Virus record (IMG/VR): IMGVR_UViG_2585427739_000008
Coordinates: 1-9,432 of that record
Source of the DNA: a virus
Lineage: Duplodnaviria > Heunggongvirae > Uroviricota > Caudoviricetes
Length of the DNA stretch: 9,432 nucleotides
Direction: 5' to 3' (one strand)
Part shown: piece after piece, positions 962 to 9,432 of the stretch
How positions within the stretch are numbered: position 1 is the stretch's first letter
How the letters are laid out: the number at the start of each line of letters is the position of its first letter
Made by a program: the position numbers and the translations under genes
The notes under the pieces: model-generated
The model's input: the letters and a program-made list of their open reading frames with translations, nothing else
Databases searched by the model: none
Told to the model about the DNA's origin: nothing

Positions 962-1140
962 AAAAAGGCTAGTTTTTGCATTTCCATGGCGGCGGCAGCA
1001 TGTTTGGTAATTTATTGATAATTAAAAGTTATTTCTCTTTTCAGCTGTACAATATTTTTTTCTCCCTGTCATTAGACTAGTTTGCAATTAATTGAAATAT
1101 ATAAATAAACCTGATTTTCACCTGCCAGATGGAGTTGCTT

Positions 1141-1305
1141 ATGTCAAATGTGAGCGGGATCGGTGATGCTTATTACTGGAGTGTTTTTAAAATCGCCGAG
1201 GCCTTTGGGCTTCACCGGGACACAGTAAAAAAACGGCTCCTCGCGGCCAACACTCCTGTGGCTGCGACTGTCAGGGGGAACCCCGTTACCGGTTTGTCGC
1301 CTTAA
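1141..1305 (+). pseudogene. terminase small subunit (Nu1-like) N-terminal fragment
   Basis: A 54-codon ORF, MSNVSGIGDAYYWSVFKIAEAFGLHRDTVKKRLLAANTPV..., with a helix-turn-helix-like segment (IAEAFGLHRDTVKK) comparable to the lambda Nu1 N-terminus (LADIFGASIRTIQN). It stops prematurely at 1303-1305 and sits directly downstream of the cos-like site. Confidence 0.5.
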
Positions 1306-1600
1306 CCGATTACGACCGTTTTCCGGAGAATATCGACAGCGAGGGTGATGGTTTCTCCCAGGCCTCAAAACGTACCACCACATTTATGTCCGCCGGGATG
1401 ACTCTGGTGGAGAGCTCGCCGGGACGTGACATCTGCGACAGCAAATGGCGACGTAAGTCGCCTCATGAAGCGCCACCGACGACTGGTATTCTTTCCCTTT
1501 ACAATCGTGGTGACCGCCGCCGCTGGTACTGGCCATGTCCGCACTGCGGTGAATATTTTCAGCCAGCCATGGATGCCATGACCGGCTACCGTAATGAACC
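1290..1600 (+). pseudogene. terminase large subunit (lambda gpA family) internal fragment
   Basis: The frame starting at 1191 is open to 1685 and encodes ...VALTDYDRFPENIDSEGDGF...SPHE...WYWPCPHCGEYF, which aligns with lambda gpA residues around YDELAAFDDDIEQEGS...SPHFMRFHVACPHCGEEQ. There is no N-terminal ~200 codons and no C-terminal half, and the reading frame differs from both neighbours. Confidence 0.6.
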
Positions 1601-4065
1601 GGATCCCTTTAAAGCCAGTGATGCGCTGTATGCCGGTATGGAACGGGCAGACGCTGACGTTCGTGCAGGACCGACCATCAGATAAGGTGTGGACCTATAA
1701 CCGCAGTAATGTGGTGATGCCGGATGATGGCGCGCCGTTCCGCTACAGCTTCAGCGCCCTGAAGGACCGCCATAATGCCGTTGAGGTGAACTGGATTGAC
1801 CCGAACAACGGCTGGGAGACGGCGACAGAGCTTGTTGAAGATACGCAGGCCATTGCCCGTTACGGTCGTAATGTCACGAAGATGGATGCCTTTGGCTGTA
1901 CCAGCCGGGGGCAGGCACACCGCGCCGGGCTGTGGCTGATTAAAACGGAACTGCTGGAGACGCAGACCGTGGATTTCAGCGTGGGTGCTGAAGGGCTTCG
2001 CCATGTACCGGGCGATGTCATTGAAATCTGCGATGATGACTATGCCGGTATCAGCACCGGCGGGCGCGTGCTGGCGGTAAACAGCCAGACCCGGACGCTG
2101 ACGCTCGACCGTGAAATCACGCTGCCATCTTCCGGCACCACGCTGATAAGCCTGGTTGACGGGCAGGGGAGTCCGGTCAGCGTGGAGGTTCAGTCCGTCA
2201 CCGACGGCGTGAAGGTAAAAGTGAGCCGTGTTCCTGACGGTGTTGCTGAATACAGCGTATGGGGGCTGAAGCTGCCGACGCTGCGCCAGCGACTGTTCCG
2301 CTGCGTGAGTATCCGTGAGAACGACGACGGCACGTATGCCATCACCGCCGTGCAGCATGTGCCGGAAAAAGAGGCCATCGTGGATAACGGGGCGCACTTT
2401 GACGGCGACCAGAGCGGCACGGTGAATGGTGTCACGCCGCCAGCGGTGCAGCACCTGACTGCCGAAGTCACCGCAGACAGCGGGGAGTATCAGGTACTGG
2501 CCCGCTGGGACACGCCGAAGGTGGTGAAGGGGGTGAGCTTTATGCTTCGCCTGACCGTGGCAGCGGACGACGGCAGTGAGCGGCTGGTCAGCACGGCCCG
2601 GACGACAGAAACCACATACCGCTTCACGCAACTGGCGCTGGGACGGTACACGCTGACAGTCCGGGCGGTAAATGCGTGGGGACAGCAGGGCGATCCGGCG
2701 TCGGTATCGTTCCGGATTGCCGCACCGGTAGCACCGTCGCGGATTGAGCTGACGCCGGGCTATTTTCAGATAACTGCCACGCCGCATCTTGCGGTTTATG
2801 ATCCGACGGTACAGTTTGAGTTCTGGTTCTCGGAAACGCGGATTACCGATATCAGGCAGGTTGAAACCACAGCCCGCTACCTTAGTGCGGGGCTGTACTG
2901 GATAGCCGCCAGTATCAATATCAAACCGGGCCATGATTATTACTTTTATATCCGCAGTGTGAACACCGTTGGCAAATCGGCATTCGTGGAGGCTGTTGGT
3001 CAGCCGAGTGATGACGCATCCGGTTATCTGGATTTTTTCAAAGGCGAGATAGGGAAAACCCATCTGGCTCAGGAGCTGTGGACGCAGATTGATAACGGTC
3101 AGCTTGCGCCTGACCTGGCTGAAATCAGGACATCCATTACGGATGTCAGCAATGAAATCACACAGACCGTCAATAAGAAACTGGAAGACCAGAGTGCAGC
3201 GATCCAGCAGATACAGAAGGTTCAGGTTGATACAAATAATAACCTGAACAGCATGTGGGCCGTGAAACTGCAGCAGATGCAGGACGGACGCCTTTATATT
3301 GCGGGTATCGGTGCCGGTATTGAGAATACGCCAGCAGGAATGCAGAGTCAGGTGCTGCTGGCGGCAGACAGGATTGCGATGATTAATCCTGCGAATGGCA
3401 ACACAAAGCCGATGTTTGTTGGTCAGGGTGATCAGATATTCATGAACGACGTGTTCCTGAAACGCCTGACGGCTCCCACCATTACCAGCGGCGGTAATCC
3501 TCCGGTATTTTCCCTGACACCGGACGGGCGGCTGACGGCGAAAAATGCGGATATCAGTGGCAGTGTGAATGCGAACGCCGGGACGCTCAACAATGTCACG
3601 ATAAATGAAAACTGTCGGGTTCTGGGAAAACTGTCTGCGAACCAGATTGAAGGCGATCTCGTTAAAACAGTGGGCAAAGCTTTCCCCCGGGACTCCCGTG
3701 CACCGGAGCGGTGGCCATCAGGGACCATTACCGTCAGGGTTTATGACGATCAGCCGTTTGACCGGCAGATTGTTATTCCCGCGGTGGCGTTTCGTGGCGC
3801 TAAACATGAGCGGGAGAATAACGATATTTATTCGTCATGCCGCCTGATAGTGAAGAAAAACGGTGCTGAAATTTATAACCGTACCGCGCTGGATAATACG
3901 CTGGTTTATACAGGTGTTATTGATATGCCTGCTGGTCGCGGTCACATGACGCTGGAGTTTTCGGTATCAGCGTGGCTGGTAAATGACTGGTATCCCACAG
4001 CCAGTATCAGTGATTTGCTGGTTGTGGTGATGAAGAAAGCCACTGCAGGCATCACGATTAGCTGA
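1594..4065 (+). CDS. J: tail tip / host specificity protein J, C-terminal ~820 aa (N-terminally truncated, probably a non-expressed remnant)
   Basis: The translation closely matches lambda gpJ from about ...[35 protein letters not shown]... to the end, with FN3-like segments and a diverged C-terminal receptor-binding end. The frame is open from 1582. The first ATG (1594) has no Shine-Dalgarno, and about 300 N-terminal codons of a full J are absent. Confidence 0.85.
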
Positions 4066-4132: not shown

Positions 4133-4732
4133 ATGCGTAAAGTTTGTGCAGCCATTTTGTCCGCAGCCATCTGTCTGGCCGTATCCGGTGCGCCTGCATG
4201 GGCGTCTGAGCAGCAGGCCACACTGAGCGCAGGGTATCTTCATGCCCGTACGAACGCTCCCGGCAGCGATAATCTGAACGGGATTAACGTGAAATACCGT
4301 TATGAGTTTACGGACACGCTGGGGCTGATTACGTCATTCAGTTATGCCAACGCTGAAGATGAGCAAAAAACGCATTACAGCGATACCCGCTGGCATGAGG
4401 ATTCCGTGCGTAACCGCTGGTTCAGCGTGATGGTGGGGCCGTCTGTGCGCGTGAATGAATGGTTCAGCGCGTATGCGATGGCGGGTGTGGCTTACAGCCG
4501 TGTGTCGACTTTCTCCGGGGATTATCTCCGCGTAACTGACAACAAGGGGAAAACGCACGATGTGCTGACCGGAAGTGATGACGGTCGCCACAGCAACATG
4601 TCTCTGGCGTGGGGGGCTGGCGTGCAGTTTAACCCGACCGAATCCGTGGCCATTGATGTCGCTTATGAAGGCTCCGGCAGTGGCGACTGGCGCACTGACG
4701 GTTTCATCGTGGGTGTCGGTTATAAGTTCTGA
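4133..4732 (+). CDS. lom: Lom outer membrane protein (Ail/Lom/OmpX beta-barrel family)
   Basis: 199 aa with a signal peptide (MRKVCAAILSAAICLAVSGAPAWA) and a C-terminus ...VAYEGSGSGDWRTDGFIVGVGYKF identical in pattern to lambda Lom. GAGG Shine-Dalgarno 7 nt upstream. Position between J and stf as in lambda. Confidence 0.9.
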   Translation: MRKVCAAILSAAICLAVSGAPAWASEQQATLSAGYLHARTNAPGSDNLNGINVKYRYEFTDTLGLITSFSYANAEDEQKTHYSDTRWHEDSVRNRWFSVMVGPSVRVNEWFSAYAMAGVAYSRVSTFSGDYLRVTDNKGKTHDVLTGSDDGRHSNMSLAWGAGVQFNPTESVAIDVAYEGSGSGDWRTDGFIVGVGYKF

Positions 4733-4786: not shown

Positions 4787-4796
4787 TGGGGTGAAT

Positions 4797-7700
4797 ATGG
4801 CAGTAAAGATTTCAGGTGTACTGAAAGACGGTGCAGGTAAACCGGTACAGAACTGTACAATCCAGCTGAAAGCAAAACGTAACAGCACCACGGTGGTGGC
4901 GAACACGGTGGCCTCAGAAAATCCGGATGAAGCCGGGCGTTACAGCATGGACGTTGAGTACGGTCAGTACAGCGTTATTCTGTTGGTGGAAGGCTTCCCG
5001 CCATCGCATGCCGGGACCATCACCGTGTATGAAGACTCACAACCGGGTACGCTGAATGATTTTCTCGGTGCCATGACGGAGGATGATGTCCGTCCGGAGG
5101 CACTGCGCCGCTTTGAACTGATGGTGGAAGAGGTGGCGCGTAACGCGTCCGCAGTGGCACAGAACACGGCAGCCGCGAAGAAGTCAGCCAGCGATGCCCG
5201 CACATCAGCCCGTGAGGCGGCAACCCATGCGACTGATGCTGCGGACTCCGCACGCGCAGCCAGCACGTCAGCCGGACAGGCCGCGTCGTCGGCTCAGTCA
5301 GCGTCTTCCAGCGCAGGAACGGCATCAACAAAGGCTACTGAAGCATCAAAAAGTGCTGACGCTGCAGAGTCTTCAAAAAGCGCGGCAGCCACCAGTGCCG
5401 GTGCAGCGAAAACGTCAGAAACGAATGCCGCAGCATCACAAAAATCTGCGGCCACTTCTGCATCCACCGCGACCACGAAAGCGTCAGAAGCTGCCACCTC
5501 AGCCCGGGATGCGTCGGCTTCAAAAGTGGCGGCAAAATCATCAGAAACGAGCGCAGCCTCGAGCGCCGGCAGTGCAGCTTCCTCGGCAACGGCGGCAGGA
5601 AATTCCGCGAAGGCCGCAAAAACGTCTGAGACGAATGCGGATAACAGCGCACAGGCGGCAGCAGACTCACAAACTGCATCGGCAAATTCCGCGACAGCAG
5701 CCAAAAAATCAGAAACCAACGCGAAAAATAGTGAGTCAGCAGCAAAGGTCAGCGAAACCAACGCTAAAGCGTCAGAGAACAAGGCGAAAGAATATCTCGA
5801 CAAGGTCGGGGGACTCGTCAGCCCGATGACGCAATACGATTGGCCCGTTGTTACTGGTAATGAGTCTTTTTACATAAAGATCGCGAAACTTTCCGATCCC
5901 GGAAGCAACAATTGCCATGTAACGCTAATGGTTACTAACGGCGGTGACTACGGTTCCCCTTACGGAAACATTGACTTTATCGAGATCTCGGCGCGCGGTC
6001 TGCCTTCTTCGCTTACTGCTGATAATGTATCTCGTTACCTGAGTATACGCCGTTTAGGGCCAACCGGGCTAATCAATAGCATGCAAATGCGTTACGGCCT
6101 GGTTAAAGATGATGGCTTTATTGAGGTTTGGGCCTTCCAGCGTGCATTTATCAACGGCGCAAAGGTTGCGGTACTGGCGCAGACGGCACGCACGGAATTA
6201 TACATTCCAGACGGATTTGTTAAGCAAACCGCCGCGCCTTCTGGATATGTTGAAAGCCCCGTTGTAAGGATTTACGACCAGTTAAACAAGCCGACTAAAG
6301 CAGATTTGGGTCTTTCTAATGCTATGCTTACAGGCGCTTTCGGTCTTGGCGGTAGCGGGATATCAACAAACGGCAAGATGAGCGATGTAGAGATCTTAAA
6401 AGCTCTGCGTGACAAAGGTGGTCATTTCTGGCGCGGTGATAAGCCGACCGGAAGCACGGCGACCATTTATAGCCACGGTTCTGGTATATTCTCGCGGTGC
6501 GGCGATACGTGGTCAGCGATCAATATCGACTACTCAACCGCGAAGATTAAGATCTATGCCGGCAACGATGCCCGGCTTAACAACGGGACTTTTAGCATCA
6601 ATGAGCTATACGGCTCGGCAAACAAGCCGTCGAAATCGGATGTTGGACTTGGCAACGTAACGAACGATGCGCAGGTAAAAAAAACCGGCGATACAATGAC
6701 CTGTGACTTGACAATCAAAAAAGGTACACCGTCAGCCTTCCTGCGGGCAGACAGTGGAGTCACCGCTTTGCGGTTTTATACTGGCGATAACACAGAGCGC
6801 GGCATAATCTATGCTGGTCCTAACACTGATTCGCTTGGCGAAGTTCGCATCAGGGCAAAGACAGCAGGGGGGACATCAGGAGGGGATCTTGTTGTTCGTC
6901 ACGACGGGAGGGTTGAAGTCCGTGATCTCACAGTAGCGTATAAAATTAAAAGCAGAACGATTGAGATTGCAAATACCGACACTGACTCATCGGCAACTAC
7001 GCTAAGCATCTATGGAGTACAGCACACGCCGTTGGTTTTAACGCGTTCTGGTTCTTCTGAAAATGTGTCCATTGGGTTTAAGTTAGACAACGTGAACCCA
7101 AAGTATCTTGGAATTGATACTAATGGGGATCTGGCTTTTGGTGAGAGTCCTGATCAGAAACAAAACAGCAAATTGATCACGCAAGCGAAACTCGACAAGG
7201 GATTAACGATTGGTGGTCAACTGGCTTTCAAAGGTACGACAGCGTTTTCAGCCGCTGCTACGTTCAGTGCCGGGATAGCAGGAGCCATCGAGCCTGAAAA
7301 CATTGGCGGCCAGAAGGTTGATCTTAACAACCTGACCATCAGGTCAGATGCCGGGGCGGTTAAATACTATAGTTGTCCATCCTCTGGAGGTGGTGCAAAT
7401 ATCACCAACAAGCCTGACGGTGTAACCGGTAACTTTTTGCTCCGTGTAGAGTCGACTCGCAAAGTTTCTGCTTCGGATTATGCGAACATGCAAACGCTGA
7501 TCAGCAACGACACAAAACGTATATACGTTCGCTTTGTTGTTAATGGAAACTGGACAGCGTGGAGTCAGGTTGTTGTTTCCGGATGGAATCAGGATATAAC
7601 TGTCAGGTCGTTAACCACATCTAGTCCGGTAAAATCTGGCGGAGGGCGAATTGATGTCCTTGGAAGCACGTCAGACTATAGCAAAATGGATTGCTTTGTA

Positions 7701-8570
7701 CGTGGGTTTGATAGCACCGGTAATTCTCTCGCGTGGGCGTTGGGTTCATCAGTCGGCGTAAGTAAGATGCTGTCGCTAAAAAATTTCTTTAGCGGAGCTG
7801 AGATACTGTTAAATGGTAATGACGGCGCGGTTCAACTCAAAACAGGTGCTGTTAACGGGGCTACAGCGCAGGCGCTAACCATCAACAAAGATGAGGTTAA
7901 CTCAACTGCCGATTTAGTAATTAGAAAACAAACAGGGACTGGCAATCGTTTTGCTTTACTTAATTCAGGTAATTCAGAACTACCAGTTGGTATCAGGGTG
8001 TGGGGTTCCAGTACTCGACAAAACGTTTTTGAGGTTGGCACGTCTGCTGCGTATCTGTTTTATGCGCAAAAAACGTCAGCAGGCCAGTTGTTTGATGTAA
8101 ATGGCGCTATTAATTGCACAACGCTGAATCAGTCATCAGACCGCGACCTTAAAGACGATATTCTCGTTATCAGCGACGCGACGAAAGCAATCCGTAAAAT
8201 GAACGGATACACCTACACGCTCAGGGAAAACGGGATGCCTTATGCTGGCGTTATTGCACAGGAAGTAATGGAGGCGATACCAGAAGCTGTGGGATCGTTT
8301 ACTCATTATGGTGAAGAGTTGCAAGGTCCGACCATTGACGGCAACGAGCTACGCGAAGAAACGCGCTATCTTAATGTTGACTACGCCGCCGTGACGGGCT
8401 TACTTGTTCAGTTCGCCCGTGAAACAGATGATCGCGTTACCGCGCTGGAAGAGGAAAACACAACGCTACGTCAAAATCTGGCAACAGCAGACACCCGGAT
8501 CAGCACTCTGGAAAATCAGGTAAGCGAACTGGTTGCACTTGTCCGGCAGTTAACAGGAAGCGAACATTGA
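4797..8570 (+). CDS. stf: side tail fiber protein, mosaic: lambda Stf-like N-terminus, Ala/Ser-rich shaft, unrelated distal module, C-terminal intramolecular chaperone domain
   Basis: From the ATG at 4797 the protein begins MAVKISGVLKDGAGKPVQNCTIQLKAKRNSTTV..., near-identical to the lambda Stf N-terminus. The ORF track starts at an in-frame GTG at 4791. The gene is 1257 codons from the ATG, with a GGGGTGA Shine-Dalgarno just upstream and a stop at 8568-8570. Confidence 0.85.
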   Translation: MAVKISGVLKDGAGKPVQNCTIQLKAKRNSTTVVANTVASENPDEAGRYSMDVEYGQYSVILLVEGFPPSHAGTITVYEDSQPGTLNDFLGAMTEDDVRPEALRRFELMVEEVARNASAVAQNTAAAKKSASDARTSAREAATHATDAADSARAASTSAGQAASSAQSASSSAGTASTKATEASKSADAAESSKSAAATSAGAAKTSETNAAASQKSAATSASTATTKASEAATSARDASASKVAAKSSETSAASSAGSAASSATAAGNSAKAAKTSETNADNSAQAAADSQTASANSATAAKKSETNAKNSESAAKVSETNAKASENKAKEYLDKVGGLVSPMTQYDWPVVTGNESFYIKIAKLSDPGSNNCHVTLMVTNGGDYGSPYGNIDFIEISARGLPSSLTADNVSRYLSIRRLGPTGLINSMQMRYGLVKDDGFIEVWAFQRAFINGAKVAVLAQTARTELYIPDGFVKQTAAPSGYVESPVVRIYDQLNKPTKADLGLSNAMLTGAFGLGGSGISTNGKMSDVEILKALRDKGGHFWRGDKPTGSTATIYSHGSGIFSRCGDTWSAINIDYSTAKIKIYAGNDARLNNGTFSINELYGSANKPSKSDVGLGNVTNDAQVKKTGDTMTCDLTIKKGTPSAFLRADSGVTALRFYTGDNTERGIIYAGPNTDSLGEVRIRAKTAGGTSGGDLVVRHDGRVEVRDLTVAYKIKSRTIEIANTDTDSSATTLSIYGVQHTPLVLTRSGSSENVSIGFKLDNVNPKYLGIDTNGDLAFGESPDQKQNSKLITQAKLDKGLTIGGQLAFKGTTAFSAAATFSAGIAGAIEPENIGGQKVDLNNLTIRSDAGAVKYYSCPSSGGGANITNKPDGVTGNFLLRVESTRKVSASDYANMQTLISNDTKRIYVRFVVNGNWTAWSQVVVSGWNQDITVRSLTTSSPVKSGGGRIDVLGSTSDYSKMDCFVRGFDSTGNSLAWALGSSVGVSKMLSLKNFFSGAEILLNGNDGAVQLKTGAVNGATAQALTINKDEVNSTADLVIRKQTGTGNRFALLNSGNSELPVGIRVWGSSTRQNVFEVGTSAAYLFYAQKTSAGQLFDVNGAINCTTLNQSSDRDLKDDILVISDATKAIRKMNGYTYTLRENGMPYAGVIAQEVMEAIPEAVGSFTHYGEELQGPTIDGNELREETRYLNVDYAAVTGLLVQFARETDDRVTALEEENTTLRQNLATADTRISTLENQVSELVALVRQLTGSEH
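5110..5790 (+). repeat. degenerate Ala/Ser/Thr-rich coding repeats within stf (recurring AAKTSETNA-like units)
   Basis: GC-rich low-complexity stretch. The motif gcnaaaacgtc(a/t)ga(a/g)acgaatgc recurs at about 5404, 5614, 5700 and 5750. It corresponds to the Ala-rich shaft region of lambda Stf. Confidence 0.6.
8136..8567 (+). other. C-terminal intramolecular chaperone domain (peptidase S74-like, self-cleaving) of the tail fiber
   Basis: The last ~144 codons begin with S-D-R-D-L-K (Ser codon 8136-8138, Lys codon 8151-8153), matching the Ser...Lys dyad spacing (SDRxLK) of autoproteolytic chaperone domains in phage endosialidases, T5 L-shaped fibers and MYRF. This is followed by ...KMNGYTYTL... 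and a coiled-coil-like tail. Confidence 0.6.
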
Positions 8571-8745
8571 TATCCTTCAAGCTCTGAAGGAGGCTGTTCC
8601 CGGTACGTTCAGACTGTTGTTGAGCTGGAAATCGCAACGGAGGAAGAAACCTTGTTGCTGGAAGCCTGGAAAAAGTATCGGGTGTTGCTGAACCGTGTTG
8701 ATACGTCAACTGCACAGGATATTGAATGGCCAGCACTGCCGTAGG
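8571..8745 (+). pseudogene. tfa: tail fiber assembly protein (Tfa) C-terminal remnant, no start codon
   Basis: Immediately after the stf stop, in the same frame, the sequence translates as ...[42 protein letters not shown]. This matches the conserved C-terminus of Tfa/U-type chaperones. There is no in-frame start, so only about 58 codons remain. Confidence 0.55.
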
Positions 8746-8841
8746 GTAAAACATATAAATTCTATAATTAGATGTATCTTTCCATTTACGGCAAGGAAGG
8801 GGGCTTGGAAGACGTAAAGCATCTCACACCGAGATTATTTT

Positions 8842-9432
8842 TTATATGTCAGGTGTCTGAAGTTTTGCTTTGGCTCTTAAAATGGTTTGCCGCGAGGTTT
8901 TGAATTCCCGGGCAATGGCACTTATACTTACACCTGACTTAATTCGTTCGAATACCACCTGTTTCTGTTCTTCATTTAACACAGGTGGTCGACCAAAACG
9001 TTTCCCTGCGCCGCGGGCTCTTACTATCCCGGAATGAGTGCGTTCAAGTAAAAGGTCTCGTTCAAATTCAGCGACTGCTGAAATTACGTGCATCATCATT
9101 TTTCCTGTTGGACTGGTCAGGTCAATGCCCCCCAATGCTAAGCAATGCACTCTGATACCTGTTTCGGTCAGTTGTTCCACTGTTTTCCTGATATCCATTG
9201 CATTACAACCAAGGCGATCCAGTTTTGTCACAATCAATTGATCACCACATTTCAGGCGAGCAAGCAACCGGTTAAAACCAGGACGCTCACTGGTTGCTGC
9301 TGAGCCGCTAATGTGTTCTTCGATTATTTGCTGAGGTTTGATTTTAAAACCTGCACTTTCGATTTCCCGGCGTTGATTTTCGGTGGTCTGATCCAGCGTT
9401 GATATCCGACAGTAAGCAAAAATTCGAGACAT
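8842..9432 (-). CDS. pin: serine recombinase, Pin/Gin/Hin-family DNA invertase (196 aa; resembles PinR/PinQ of E. coli cryptic prophages)
   Basis: The minus-strand ORF begins [20 protein letters not shown]... (catalytic Ser in the YxRxST motif) and has a C-terminal helix-turn-helix ([18 protein letters not shown]). Its start codon is the last three bases of the window. It is convergent with stf/tfa, as in Rac-type prophages. Confidence 0.9.

What the first reader, a model, noticed from the sequence alone, without database searches (positions are those of the whole stretch)
8568..8745. Recombination scar: a tfa C-terminus lies in frame immediately after the stf stop codon
The TGA ending stf (8568-8570) is followed, with no gap and in the same reading frame, by about 58 codons of a conserved Tfa C-terminus with no start codon. 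This is what a module exchange would leave if the incoming fiber-plus-chaperone cassette recombined within the conserved 3' end of tfa, deleting the old fiber tip and most of tfa. It marks a candidate breakpoint for tail-fiber shuffling.
Basis: partly seen in the sequence, partly recalled or inferred. Interest (0 to 1): 0.6.

Follow-up and report, generated by a model that had tools for sequence, protein, structure and literature searches.

The report
Leftover chaperone-gene stub behind self-folding tail fibre
It is a dead 3' stub of the phage tail-fibre chaperone gene tfa, left when the outer part of a lambda-type side fibre was replaced by a T5-like fibre that carries its own built-in chaperone; it is common in E. 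coli, already annotated as a pseudogene, and most likely matters only as a stretch of homology where fibre cassettes recombine.

Summary
The same frame stays open for 57 codons to TAG 8742-8744. Codons 13-57 match the C-terminal end of the Tfa family (Pfam Caudo_TAP positions 86-130 of 131, E=3.7e-19). The first 12 codons (8571-8606) show no Tfa similarity, so "no gap" is slightly overstated.

The scar reading is right in kind but wrong in detail.
- The incoming DNA was not a fibre-plus-chaperone cassette. It was a T5 L-shaped-fibre-like distal part ending in a Peptidase_S74 intramolecular chaperone domain. That domain probably makes Tfa unnecessary.
- The left crossover is at about 5638, in an Ala/Ser repeat shared by lambda stf and T5 ltf, not at about 5790.
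- The stop-to-stub junction is old and of single origin. It is identical in 43 viral contigs and in phages mEp460 and Ayreon, and it is present in at least 802 of 5426 complete E. coli genomes.
- The stub's 3' half occurs in at least 10 versions that vary with the downstream neighbourhood. This indicates repeated homologous crossovers inside the conserved tfa block.

RefSeq already marks the stub as a tfa pseudogene. No invertase crossover site, terminator or credible RNA was found. Verdict: an ordinary, well-explained recombination relic of low to moderate interest.

The parts
4791..5638 (+). stf, proximal part of lambda/Rac type (aa 1-283; phage_tail_N domain aa 3-136 plus Ala/Ser-rich repeats)
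   Evidence: 85% amino-acid identity to lambda orf-401 over aa 3-286. All classical lambdoid phages match stf nt 1-848 and stop there. PF08400 E=1e-71.
5529..5638 (+). Left crossover zone: stretch of the AAKTSETNA repeat shared by lambda-type stf and T5 ltf
   Evidence: Both the lambda-type match (stf nt 1-848) and the T5-type match (stf nt 739-2395) cover this interval. In alignment A3 the window switches from lambda/Rac-like to T5-like at 5638, where it shares T5's 21-nt gap. Repeat family D1 has 84-nt spacing.
5639..8135 (+). stf, distal shaft and tip of T5 L-shaped-fibre (pb1) type
   Evidence: 55% identity and 71% positives to T5 pb1 aa 36-806. 72% nucleotide identity to T5 ltf over stf nt 739-2395. 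The tip region resembles other T5-like and lambdoid fibres (FritzHoffmann, slur09).
8136..8570 (+). stf, C-terminal intramolecular chaperone domain (Peptidase_S74) with putative cleavage Ser1116 and Lys1121, C-terminal coiled-coil helix and its native stop codon
   Evidence: PF13884 E=9e-12, 45.5 bits against a cut-off of 22. The SSDRDLK motif aligns with T5 pb1 TSDARLK and phage S16 gp37 SSDRRIK. 69-77% amino-acid identity to the fibre ends of slur09 and mEp044. The last 30 nt are 21/30 identical to the mEp044 fibre end, with the stop codon at the same position.
8571..8606 (+). 36-nt spacer of unresolved origin between the stf stop and the first Tfa-like codon
   Evidence: No Pfam match in the stf frame or in the +1 frame. 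No intact Tfa containing it was found among 5.8 billion proteins. It is not similar to the sequence downstream of the mEp044 or slur09 fibres. It is always linked to the S74 fibre end.
8607..8744 (+). tfa 3' remnant (pseudogene): conserved C-terminal helical domain of Tfa, codons 13-57, plus the native tfa stop
   Evidence: PF02413 positions 86-130 of 131, E=3.7e-19. Near-identity to K-12 tfaQ from about 8624. PGAP pseudogene in E. coli HS. The 5' part (to about 8629) travels with the fibre, and the 3' part (about 8630-8741) varies with the downstream context.
8842..9432 (-). pinQ serine invertase gene, convergent with stf/tfa; resident Qin sequence, not part of the imported fibre module
   Evidence: Resolvase and HTH_7 domains. 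Annotated pinQ in E. coli HS and K-12. Present downstream of the stub in only 13 of 45 loci that carry the same junction.

Best explanation
The segment 8571-8744 is a non-coding relic of tfa, the tail-fibre assembly chaperone gene.

Origin. An ancestral lambdoid phage had the usual stf-tfa pair. Its fibre was rebuilt by recombination with a T5-like L-shaped-fibre gene. The left crossover was homologous and lay in an Ala/Ser repeat that both fibre genes share (window about 5529-5638). The right join was probably illegitimate. It put the native stop codon of the incoming gene next to about codon 135 of tfa. This deleted the old fibre tip and the N-terminal, fibre-binding two thirds of tfa.

Why tfa could be lost. 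The incoming fibre ends in a Peptidase_S74 intramolecular chaperone domain. That domain folds the trimer and is then cut off, so a separate Tfa is no longer needed. The stub therefore has no start codon, no fibre-binding domain and no role in assembly.

What it does now. The stub is the most conserved DNA of every tfa gene. It has since served as the right-hand homology arm through which this self-chaperoning fibre module moved among many lambdoid phages and prophages. One such move put it into the defective Qin prophage of this window, next to pinQ.

Shown: the domain content, both boundaries, the single-origin junction, and the mosaic 3' half.
Inferred: dispensability of Tfa, the non-homologous nature of the right join, and the direction of transfer.
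For: Domain content:
- The stub matches only the Tfa C-terminus.
- There is no in-frame ATG or GTG.
- Stf carries Peptidase_S74 with the Ser/Lys motif and a native C-terminus and stop.
- The T5 pb1-like shaft and the lambda-type N-terminus switch at 5638 within shared homology.

Single-origin junction:
- A 23-mer specific to the stub's 5' part (8607-8629) was found in 43 viral contigs and in mEp460, Ayreon, HS and other loci. In every case TGA lies exactly 39 nt upstream. The preceding 300 nt are at least 90% identical to the window's stf end wherever a full fibre is present.
- At least 802 of 5426 complete E. coli genomes carry the stf end plus junction.

Recombination inside the stub:
- The stub's 3' end occurs in at least 10 versions (ALP, AVPVME, TNPVRE, LEEPNTM, EEPDTV and others). 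These group with at least 10 different downstream sequences. pin follows in only 13 of 45 loci.
- Nucleotide diversity is 0.02 across 8418-8629, 0.11 at 8630-8669 and 0.23 at 8700-8738.
- Within the window, 8571 to about 8684 matches mEp460/Ayreon alleles, and about 8705 onward is identical to K-12 Qin.

From the literature:
- Lambda recombines with Rac and Qin in stf/tfa homology, with one third of right-hand crossovers in tfa (PMC3945230).
- Tfa proteins have a variable N-terminal fibre-binding domain and a conserved C-terminal helical trimerisation domain. Intramolecular S74-type chaperones have a similar overall architecture (PMC9608196).
Against: - Neither parent of the right-hand join was found, so the exact breakpoint (somewhere in 8571-8606) and its mechanism are not shown.
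- Dispensability of Tfa for this fibre is inferred from the domain, not tested.
- 44 of 45 sampled stubs keep an open frame to the native tfa stop. This could hint at selection. It is equally expected if the 3' half is continually replaced from intact tfa genes.
- The three variable sites in 8571-8606 are all third-codon positions and synonymous in the +1 frame. This is unexplained.
- The viral-contig sample was chosen by an exact 23-mer. This lowers apparent diversity at 8607-8629 and cannot detect diverged versions of the junction.
Confidence: 0.85

Rival explanations
1. The stub is expressed, either by read-through of the stf TGA (adding a Tfa helical domain to the chaperone domain) or from the in-frame TTG at 8652/8655 behind GGAGG, and the peptide has a function.
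For: The stub is in frame with stf. It is open to the native tfa stop in 44 of 45 sampled copies. GGAGG lies at 8639-8643, 8-11 nt before the in-frame TTG codons.
Against: - The frame relation comes from one ancestral event, so it is not independent evidence.
- In the stf frame the only changes in the stub-specific 5' codons are non-synonymous (S>P, G>S, R>W).
- The first TTG is TCG in 32 of 45 copies.
- The GGAGG is simply the T-E-E codons found in all tfa genes.
- One copy is frameshifted (L022).
- Any read-through extension would sit on a domain that is cleaved off.
- The fibre-binding N-terminal domain of Tfa is absent (PMC9608196).
Confidence: 0.04
2. The junction was made by the neighbouring Pin invertase through site-specific recombination, and the region is, or was, part of an invertible fibre segment like Mu G, P1 C or e14 P.
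For: pinQ lies 97 nt downstream. Older literature attributes fibre-gene exchange to fibre-associated invertases (Sandmeier 1994, as cited in PMC3945230).
Against: - No match to the Hin/Gin/Cin/Pin crossover-site consensus anywhere in the window, allowing up to 3 mismatches.
- No inverted duplicate of stf or tfa, and no meaningful inverted repeat.
- pin is convergent with tfa, so its 3' end faces the stub.
- 32 of 45 loci with the identical junction have no pin downstream, including mEp460 and Ayreon.
Confidence: 0.03
3. The segment encodes the small RNA IS009 (Rfam RF02111).
For: cmscan aligns 8510-8710 (+) to the full-length model, 92.7 bits, E about 1e-21.
Against: - The score is below the family's gathering score (117).
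- The model consensus is ordinary tfa coding sequence. Good alignment is limited to the part that is the tfa stub, and the 5' half aligns poorly.
- In EHEC the family's hits were excluded as lying inside genes on the same strand (PMC5331693).
- No promoter or terminator was found at 8300-8800.
- The local fold is no better than shuffled sequence (z=0.15).
Confidence: 0.03
4. The stub is kept by selection as a recombination handle. Fibre modules that carry it spread more, so it is maintained for evolvability rather than being a neutral relic.
For: The stub accompanies the S74 fibre end in essentially all E. coli copies (802 of 814 genomes with a match). It shows many independent crossovers in its 3' half. 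An unrelated fibre cassette in Tritos, HannyBb and PhiR63_1 also ends in an unannotated tfa 3' stub.
Against: Hitch-hiking explains the same pattern without selection on the stub. Related S74 fibres without any stub exist and function (mEp044, slur09). Second-order selection cannot be told apart from neutrality with these data.
Confidence: 0.3

Closest known systems
Truncated tfa pseudogenes of E. coli cryptic prophages (e.g. K-12 DLP12 tfaX; the PGAP 'tail fiber assembly protein, incomplete' features)
   Same: A start-less or re-started 3' fragment of tfa containing the LEIATEEE...[16 protein letters not shown] block, sitting at a module boundary in a lambdoid prophage. A search of 5.8 billion proteins returned mostly 45-108-aa 'partial' Tfa entries with many different fusion points.
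   Different: This stub has one fixed 5' junction, directly behind an S74-type fibre stop codon, shared by hundreds of genomes. It has a stub-specific 5' sequence ([11 protein letters not shown]) not seen in any intact Tfa.
Phage T5 L-shaped tail fibre pb1 (ltf) with C-terminal intramolecular chaperone (PDB 4UW7/4UW8; Garcia-Doval et al. 2015, as cited in PMC9608196)
   Same: Shaft 55% identical over about 770 aa. C-terminal Peptidase_S74 domain with the SDxxxK motif and a terminal helix. No separate chaperone gene downstream in T5-like phages.
   Different: The N-terminal 283 aa are lambda Stf (attachment to a lambdoid tail). The tip between aa 945 and about 1095 is not T5's. The gene is followed by a tfa stub.
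Lambda stf-tfa and K-12 Rac/Qin stfR-tfaR-pinR and stfQ-tfaQ-pinQ units
   Same: Same position after J and lom, same Stf N-terminus, same tfa 3' end and pin gene.
   Different: Those units keep an intact 190-aa Tfa and a fibre tip that depends on it. Here the tip and two thirds of tfa are replaced.
Horizontal exchange of tail-fibre genes among unrelated phages (Haggard-Ljungquist et al. 1992; Sandmeier et al. 1992; Sandmeier 1994; De Paepe et al. 2014, PMC3945230)
   Same: Mosaic fibre genes joined at short conserved stretches. There is experimental crossover in tfa between infecting lambda and Rac/Qin.
   Different: This is a temperate/virulent (lambda/T5) mosaic in which the chaperone strategy itself changed from a trans-acting Tfa to a built-in domain. 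This leaves the old chaperone gene's conserved end as the exchange point.

Membership tests
Tfa / Caudo_TAP (PF02413) tail-fibre assembly protein | Profile match above the curated cut-off | tested here: met
   69.6 bits against 22.1, E=3.7e-19, but only profile positions 86-130 of 131.
Tfa / Caudo_TAP (PF02413) tail-fibre assembly protein | Complete protein of about 190 aa with the variable N-terminal fibre-binding domain | tested here: not met
   Only 45 C-terminal codons are Tfa-like. The upstream sequence is the stf chaperone domain. Domain roles are from PMC9608196.
Tfa / Caudo_TAP (PF02413) tail-fibre assembly protein | Own start codon and ribosome-binding site | tested here: not met
   No ORF is called here. 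There is no in-frame ATG or GTG, only internal TTG codons. PGAP marks it as a pseudogene missing the N-terminus.
Peptidase_S74 intramolecular chaperone (endosialidase / T5 pb1 type) | Profile match at the C-terminus of a fibre or spike protein | tested here: met
   PF13884, 45.5 bits against 22, aa 1116-1167 of 1259.
Peptidase_S74 intramolecular chaperone (endosialidase / T5 pb1 type) | Ser...Lys (S-D-x-x-x-K) autoproteolysis motif | tested here: met
   SSDRDLK at aa 1115-1121 aligns with T5 pb1 TSDARLK and S16 gp37 SSDRRIK. That this is the catalytic dyad rests on published work recalled from memory.
Peptidase_S74 intramolecular chaperone (endosialidase / T5 pb1 type) | Self-cleavage and chaperone-independent trimer folding | not testable with these tools
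   Needs expression of Stf with and without S1116A/K1121A mutations.
Din-family invertible fibre segment (Mu G/Gin, P1 C/Cin, e14 P/Pin) | Serine invertase gene adjacent to the fibre genes | tested here: met
   pinQ, with Resolvase and HTH_7 domains.
Din-family invertible fibre segment (Mu G/Gin, P1 C/Cin, e14 P/Pin) | Two inverted 26-bp crossover sites flanking alternative fibre-tip and tfa copies | tested here: not met
   0 matches to TTNTCNNAAACCNNGGTTTNNGANAA with up to 3 mismatches. No inverted second stf/tfa copy. The consensus was written from memory. The region upstream of pin lies outside the window.
Rfam IS009 (RF02111) | Score at or above the gathering threshold | tested here: not met
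   92.7 bits against 117. The match is explained by tfa coding homology.
Lambda-type side tail fibre Stf | phage_tail_N N-terminal domain, position after J and lom | tested here: met
   PF08400 E=1e-71. 85% identity to lambda Stf aa 1-284. J' and lom lie upstream.

The most novel reading that the evidence does not exclude
The tfa stub is not just debris. It may be a maintained portable homology arm that lets a chaperone-independent, T5-derived fibre cassette insert into any lambdoid genome that has a tfa gene. Fibre modules carrying the stub would then out-spread those without it. Alternatively, the 36-nt spacer plus stub, whose three polymorphisms are all synonymous in the +1 frame, could be the trace of an undiscovered tfa lineage or a still-translated element.
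Probability: 0.15. Interest if true: 0.5.

Novelty: already known. Interest (0 to 1): 0.3.

Why it matters
It is a clean natural example of how phage host-range modules move. A fibre that brings its own folding domain frees itself from its partner gene. The conserved tail of the abandoned partner then becomes the landing strip for further exchanges, including exchange between a virulent-phage (T5) lineage and temperate lambdoid lineages.

For people engineering lambda-type particles with new fibres, it points to natural, proven fusion points. These are stf aa 283 in the AAKTSETNA repeat on the left and the tfa 3' block on the right. It also shows that S74-type tips need no added chaperone gene.

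For annotation it adds little. The stub is already flagged as a pseudogene. The Rfam IS009 hit over it should be read as tfa coding sequence, not as an RNA gene.

Tried and rejected
1. Extending the tfa homology leftward by assuming a 2-nt frameshift ('repaired' peptide [17 protein letters not shown]+VQTVV...). The Pfam score rose only from 70.0 to 71.3 bits. The 27-aa +1-frame peptide alone gave nothing. No protein among 5.8 billion contains it. The stf 3' end including its stop is native to the S74 lineage. The idea is therefore unproven and not used.

2. Looking for the donor's downstream sequence. The sequence after the mEp044 and slur09 fibre stops consists of terminator hairpins unrelated to 8571-8606.

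3. Invertase crossover sites, terminators, promoters and repeats linking the two breakpoints. None were found.

4. RNA structure and RNA family. The fold is not better than shuffles. The IS009 hit is sub-threshold and is explained by tfa coding sequence.

5. mEp460_ev081 as a direct example of exchange through the stub. That evolved phage replaced everything from stf nt 848 through recE with Rac DNA, so its right crossover is not in the stub.

6. NCBIfam gave no useful family for Stf or the stub.

7. Literature searches found no paper describing this junction.
Full report
What the window is.
The window matches the right arm of the defective Qin prophage as found in E. coli HS (99.9% identity). 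Its contents in order are:
- a terminase fragment fused to the C-terminal 823 codons of J (1594-4065);
- lom (4133-4732);
- a 1259-codon stf (4791-8570);
- the segment in question (8571-8744);
- the convergent invertase gene pinQ (8842-9432, minus strand).
In K-12 the same site carries stfQ'-tfaQ-pinQ with an intact 191-aa TfaQ.

Checking the observation.
- TGA sits at 8568-8570. The same frame runs open for 57 codons to TAG at 8742-8744.
- Pfam Caudo_TAP matches codons 13-57 to profile positions 86-130 of 131 (E=3.7e-19).
- From about 8624 the DNA is nearly identical to the 3' end of K-12 tfaQ, and this identity continues through the intergenic region into pinQ.
- There is no in-frame ATG or GTG.
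- The first 12 codons (8571-8606) have no Tfa similarity, so the Tfa-like part is 45 codons, not 58.
- RefSeq already annotates the stub in HS as 'tail fiber assembly protein; incomplete; missing N-terminus'.

What replaced the old fibre.
The stf is a three-part mosaic.
- Nucleotides 1-848 (to window 5638, aa 283) are lambda/Rac type: 85% amino-acid identity to lambda Stf. Every classical lambdoid phage in the database matches exactly this interval and no further.
- From stf nt 739 onward the gene matches the T5 L-shaped fibre gene ltf (72% nucleotide identity over 1.6 kb; 55% amino-acid identity over aa 178-944).
- The two matches overlap in about 100 nt of an Ala/Ser-rich 'AAKTSETNA' repeat that lambda stf and T5 ltf share. 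In the four-way alignment the window switches partner at 5638. The left join therefore looks like a homologous crossover.
- The C-terminus is a Peptidase_S74 intramolecular chaperone domain (aa 1116-1167, 45.5 bits against a cut-off of 22). It has the SSDRDLK motif aligned to T5 pb1 and S16 gp37 and a terminal coiled-coil helix.
- Its end is native. It is 69-77% identical in protein to the fibre ends of slur09 and mEp044. The last 30 nt are 21/30 identical to mEp044, with the stop codon at the same place.
- T5-like and mEp044-type fibres are followed by a terminator, not by a chaperone gene.

The incoming module therefore carried its chaperone inside the fibre gene. This probably explains why most of tfa could be lost. 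According to PMC9608196, Tfa proteins have a variable N-terminal domain that binds the fibre and a conserved C-terminal helical domain that trimerises. Only the latter is left here.

How old and how common the junction is.
- The stf end plus the first 70 nt of the stub occurs in 814 of 5426 complete E. coli genomes. 802 of them cover at least 80% of the query, at identities down to 89%. The listed examples are annotated as a fibre protein followed by a tfa pseudogene.
- Plaque-forming phages mEp460, Ayreon and PhiR70_1 carry it too, without pin.
- I then searched IMG/VR for a 23-mer specific to the stub's 5' part (8607-8629) and obtained 43 contigs. In all of them, and in the other loci held, TGA lies exactly 39 nt upstream. 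The preceding 300 nt are at least 90% identical to the window's stf end wherever a whole fibre is present.
- This stub variant ([11 protein letters not shown]) was not seen in any intact Tfa.
The junction is therefore a single old event. The in-frame relation to stf is one inherited coincidence.

Where recombination actually happens.
- The 3' half of the stub is highly mosaic. At least ten different C-terminal endings occur (…WPALP, …WPAVPVME, …WPTNPVRE, …WLEEPNTM, …WPEEPDTV, …WPVAPIG, …DWPAAPKCNSLELITCE and others).
- These endings sort with at least ten unrelated downstream sequences. pin follows in only 13 of 45 loci.
- Nucleotide diversity is 0.02 from 8418 to 8629, 0.11 at 8630-8669, 0.025 in the invariant [10 protein letters not shown] block and 0.23 at 8700-8738. 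The 23-mer used to pick the sample forces zero diversity at 8607-8629.
- In the window itself the discriminating sites match mEp460/Ayreon up to about 8684 and match K-12 Qin from about 8705 on.
- This is the pattern expected if the S74 fibre module has repeatedly entered resident genomes by homologous crossover within the conserved tfa block.
- De Paepe et al. showed this kind of crossover experimentally between lambda and Rac/Qin. One third of the right-hand junctions were in tfa (PMC3945230).
- A different fibre cassette in Tritos, HannyBb and PhiR63_1 also ends in an unannotated tfa 3' stub next to pin.
- One prophage, and K-12 DLP12, have two tfa fragments flanking a methyltransferase gene. 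The tfa 3' end is therefore a general module boundary.

What could not be resolved.
- The 36 nt at 8571-8606 match neither Tfa profiles nor the sequence downstream of related fibres.
- A frameshift 'repair' adds only 1.3 bits to the Pfam score.
- No protein in the large database contains the +1-frame peptide.
- The three variable sites in this stretch (8583, 8592, 8601) are all third positions and synonymous in the +1 frame, and non-synonymous in the stf frame. By phase alone this has a chance of about 0.04. I have no explanation for it.

Rivals.
- Expression by read-through or from an internal TTG is unlikely, for four reasons. The changes in the stub-specific codons are non-synonymous. The first TTG is usually TCG. 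The GGAGG is just the T-E-E codons. The fibre-binding domain is missing.
- An invertase-made junction or an invertible segment is not supported. There is no crossover-site match, no inverted second copy, pin is convergent, and most copies of the junction lack pin.
- The Rfam IS009 hit (92.7 bits, below the gathering score of 117) is tfa coding sequence seen through an RNA model. No promoter, terminator or unusual fold is present.

Verdict.
The 'recombination scar' reading is right in kind.
The feature is an already annotated pseudogene of a well-known kind.
The added value is threefold:
- the recognition that a T5-type, self-chaperoning fibre displaced tfa;
- the finding that the junction has a single origin;
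- the finding that the stub's conserved half serves as a reusable right-hand homology arm.
Interest is low to moderate.

Noticed in passing
window 8510-8710 (+): Rfam family IS009 (RF02111) aligns here full-length at 92.7 bits, below its gathering score of 117. The model consensus reads as ordinary tfa coding sequence. Hits of this family probably mark tfa genes and fragments rather than an RNA gene.
   Followed up: partly
window 8583, 8592, 8601: Among 45 copies of the junction, the only variable sites in the 36-nt spacer are all third-codon positions and synonymous in the +1 frame (…[12 protein letters not shown]…). They are non-synonymous in the stf frame. The chance by phase alone is about 0.04. 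Unexplained.
   Followed up: partly
window about 1040-4065: By the E. coli HS annotation, a terminase large-subunit N-terminal fragment is fused directly to the C-terminal part of J. All head genes and most tail genes are deleted, so this prophage cannot build the virion its fibre would attach to.
   Followed up: no
L009 4510-5690 (E. coli Z0117EC0117); L056 5535-7061 (K-12 DLP12): Two tfa fragments in direct orientation flank a SAM-methyltransferase gene (ybcY type). In L009 the left one is the same S74-linked stub. This suggests the methyltransferase was inserted, or is exchanged, through tfa 3' homology.
   Followed up: no
L005 5200-5430 (phage Tritos; also HannyBb, PhiR63_1): A different fibre cassette (stf homologue, small ORF, second fibre protein, small ORF) also ends in an unannotated tfa 3' stub next to pinR. 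Homology starts at nearly the same tfa position (…GCAACGGAGGAAGAA).
   Followed up: partly
window 8268-8417 versus 8418-8629: Among copies of the junction, diversity is 0.10 in the body of the S74 domain but only 0.02 across its last 150 nt and the junction. The chaperone helix plus junction may be a shared unit attached to several different tips.
   Followed up: no
proteins P0006, P0016, P0096, P0012: Public E. coli annotations contain many short chimeric ORFs in which fragments of other phage proteins (tail-collar domain, Lom, tail protein I) run into the Tfa C-terminus at different points. This shows that deletions ending in tfa are frequent.
   Followed up: no
window 4791-4799: The longest stf ORF starts at GTG 4791, but homology to lambda Stf (MAVKISGV…) begins at the ATG at 4797. 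RefSeq coordinates for HS imply a start at 4794.
   Followed up: no
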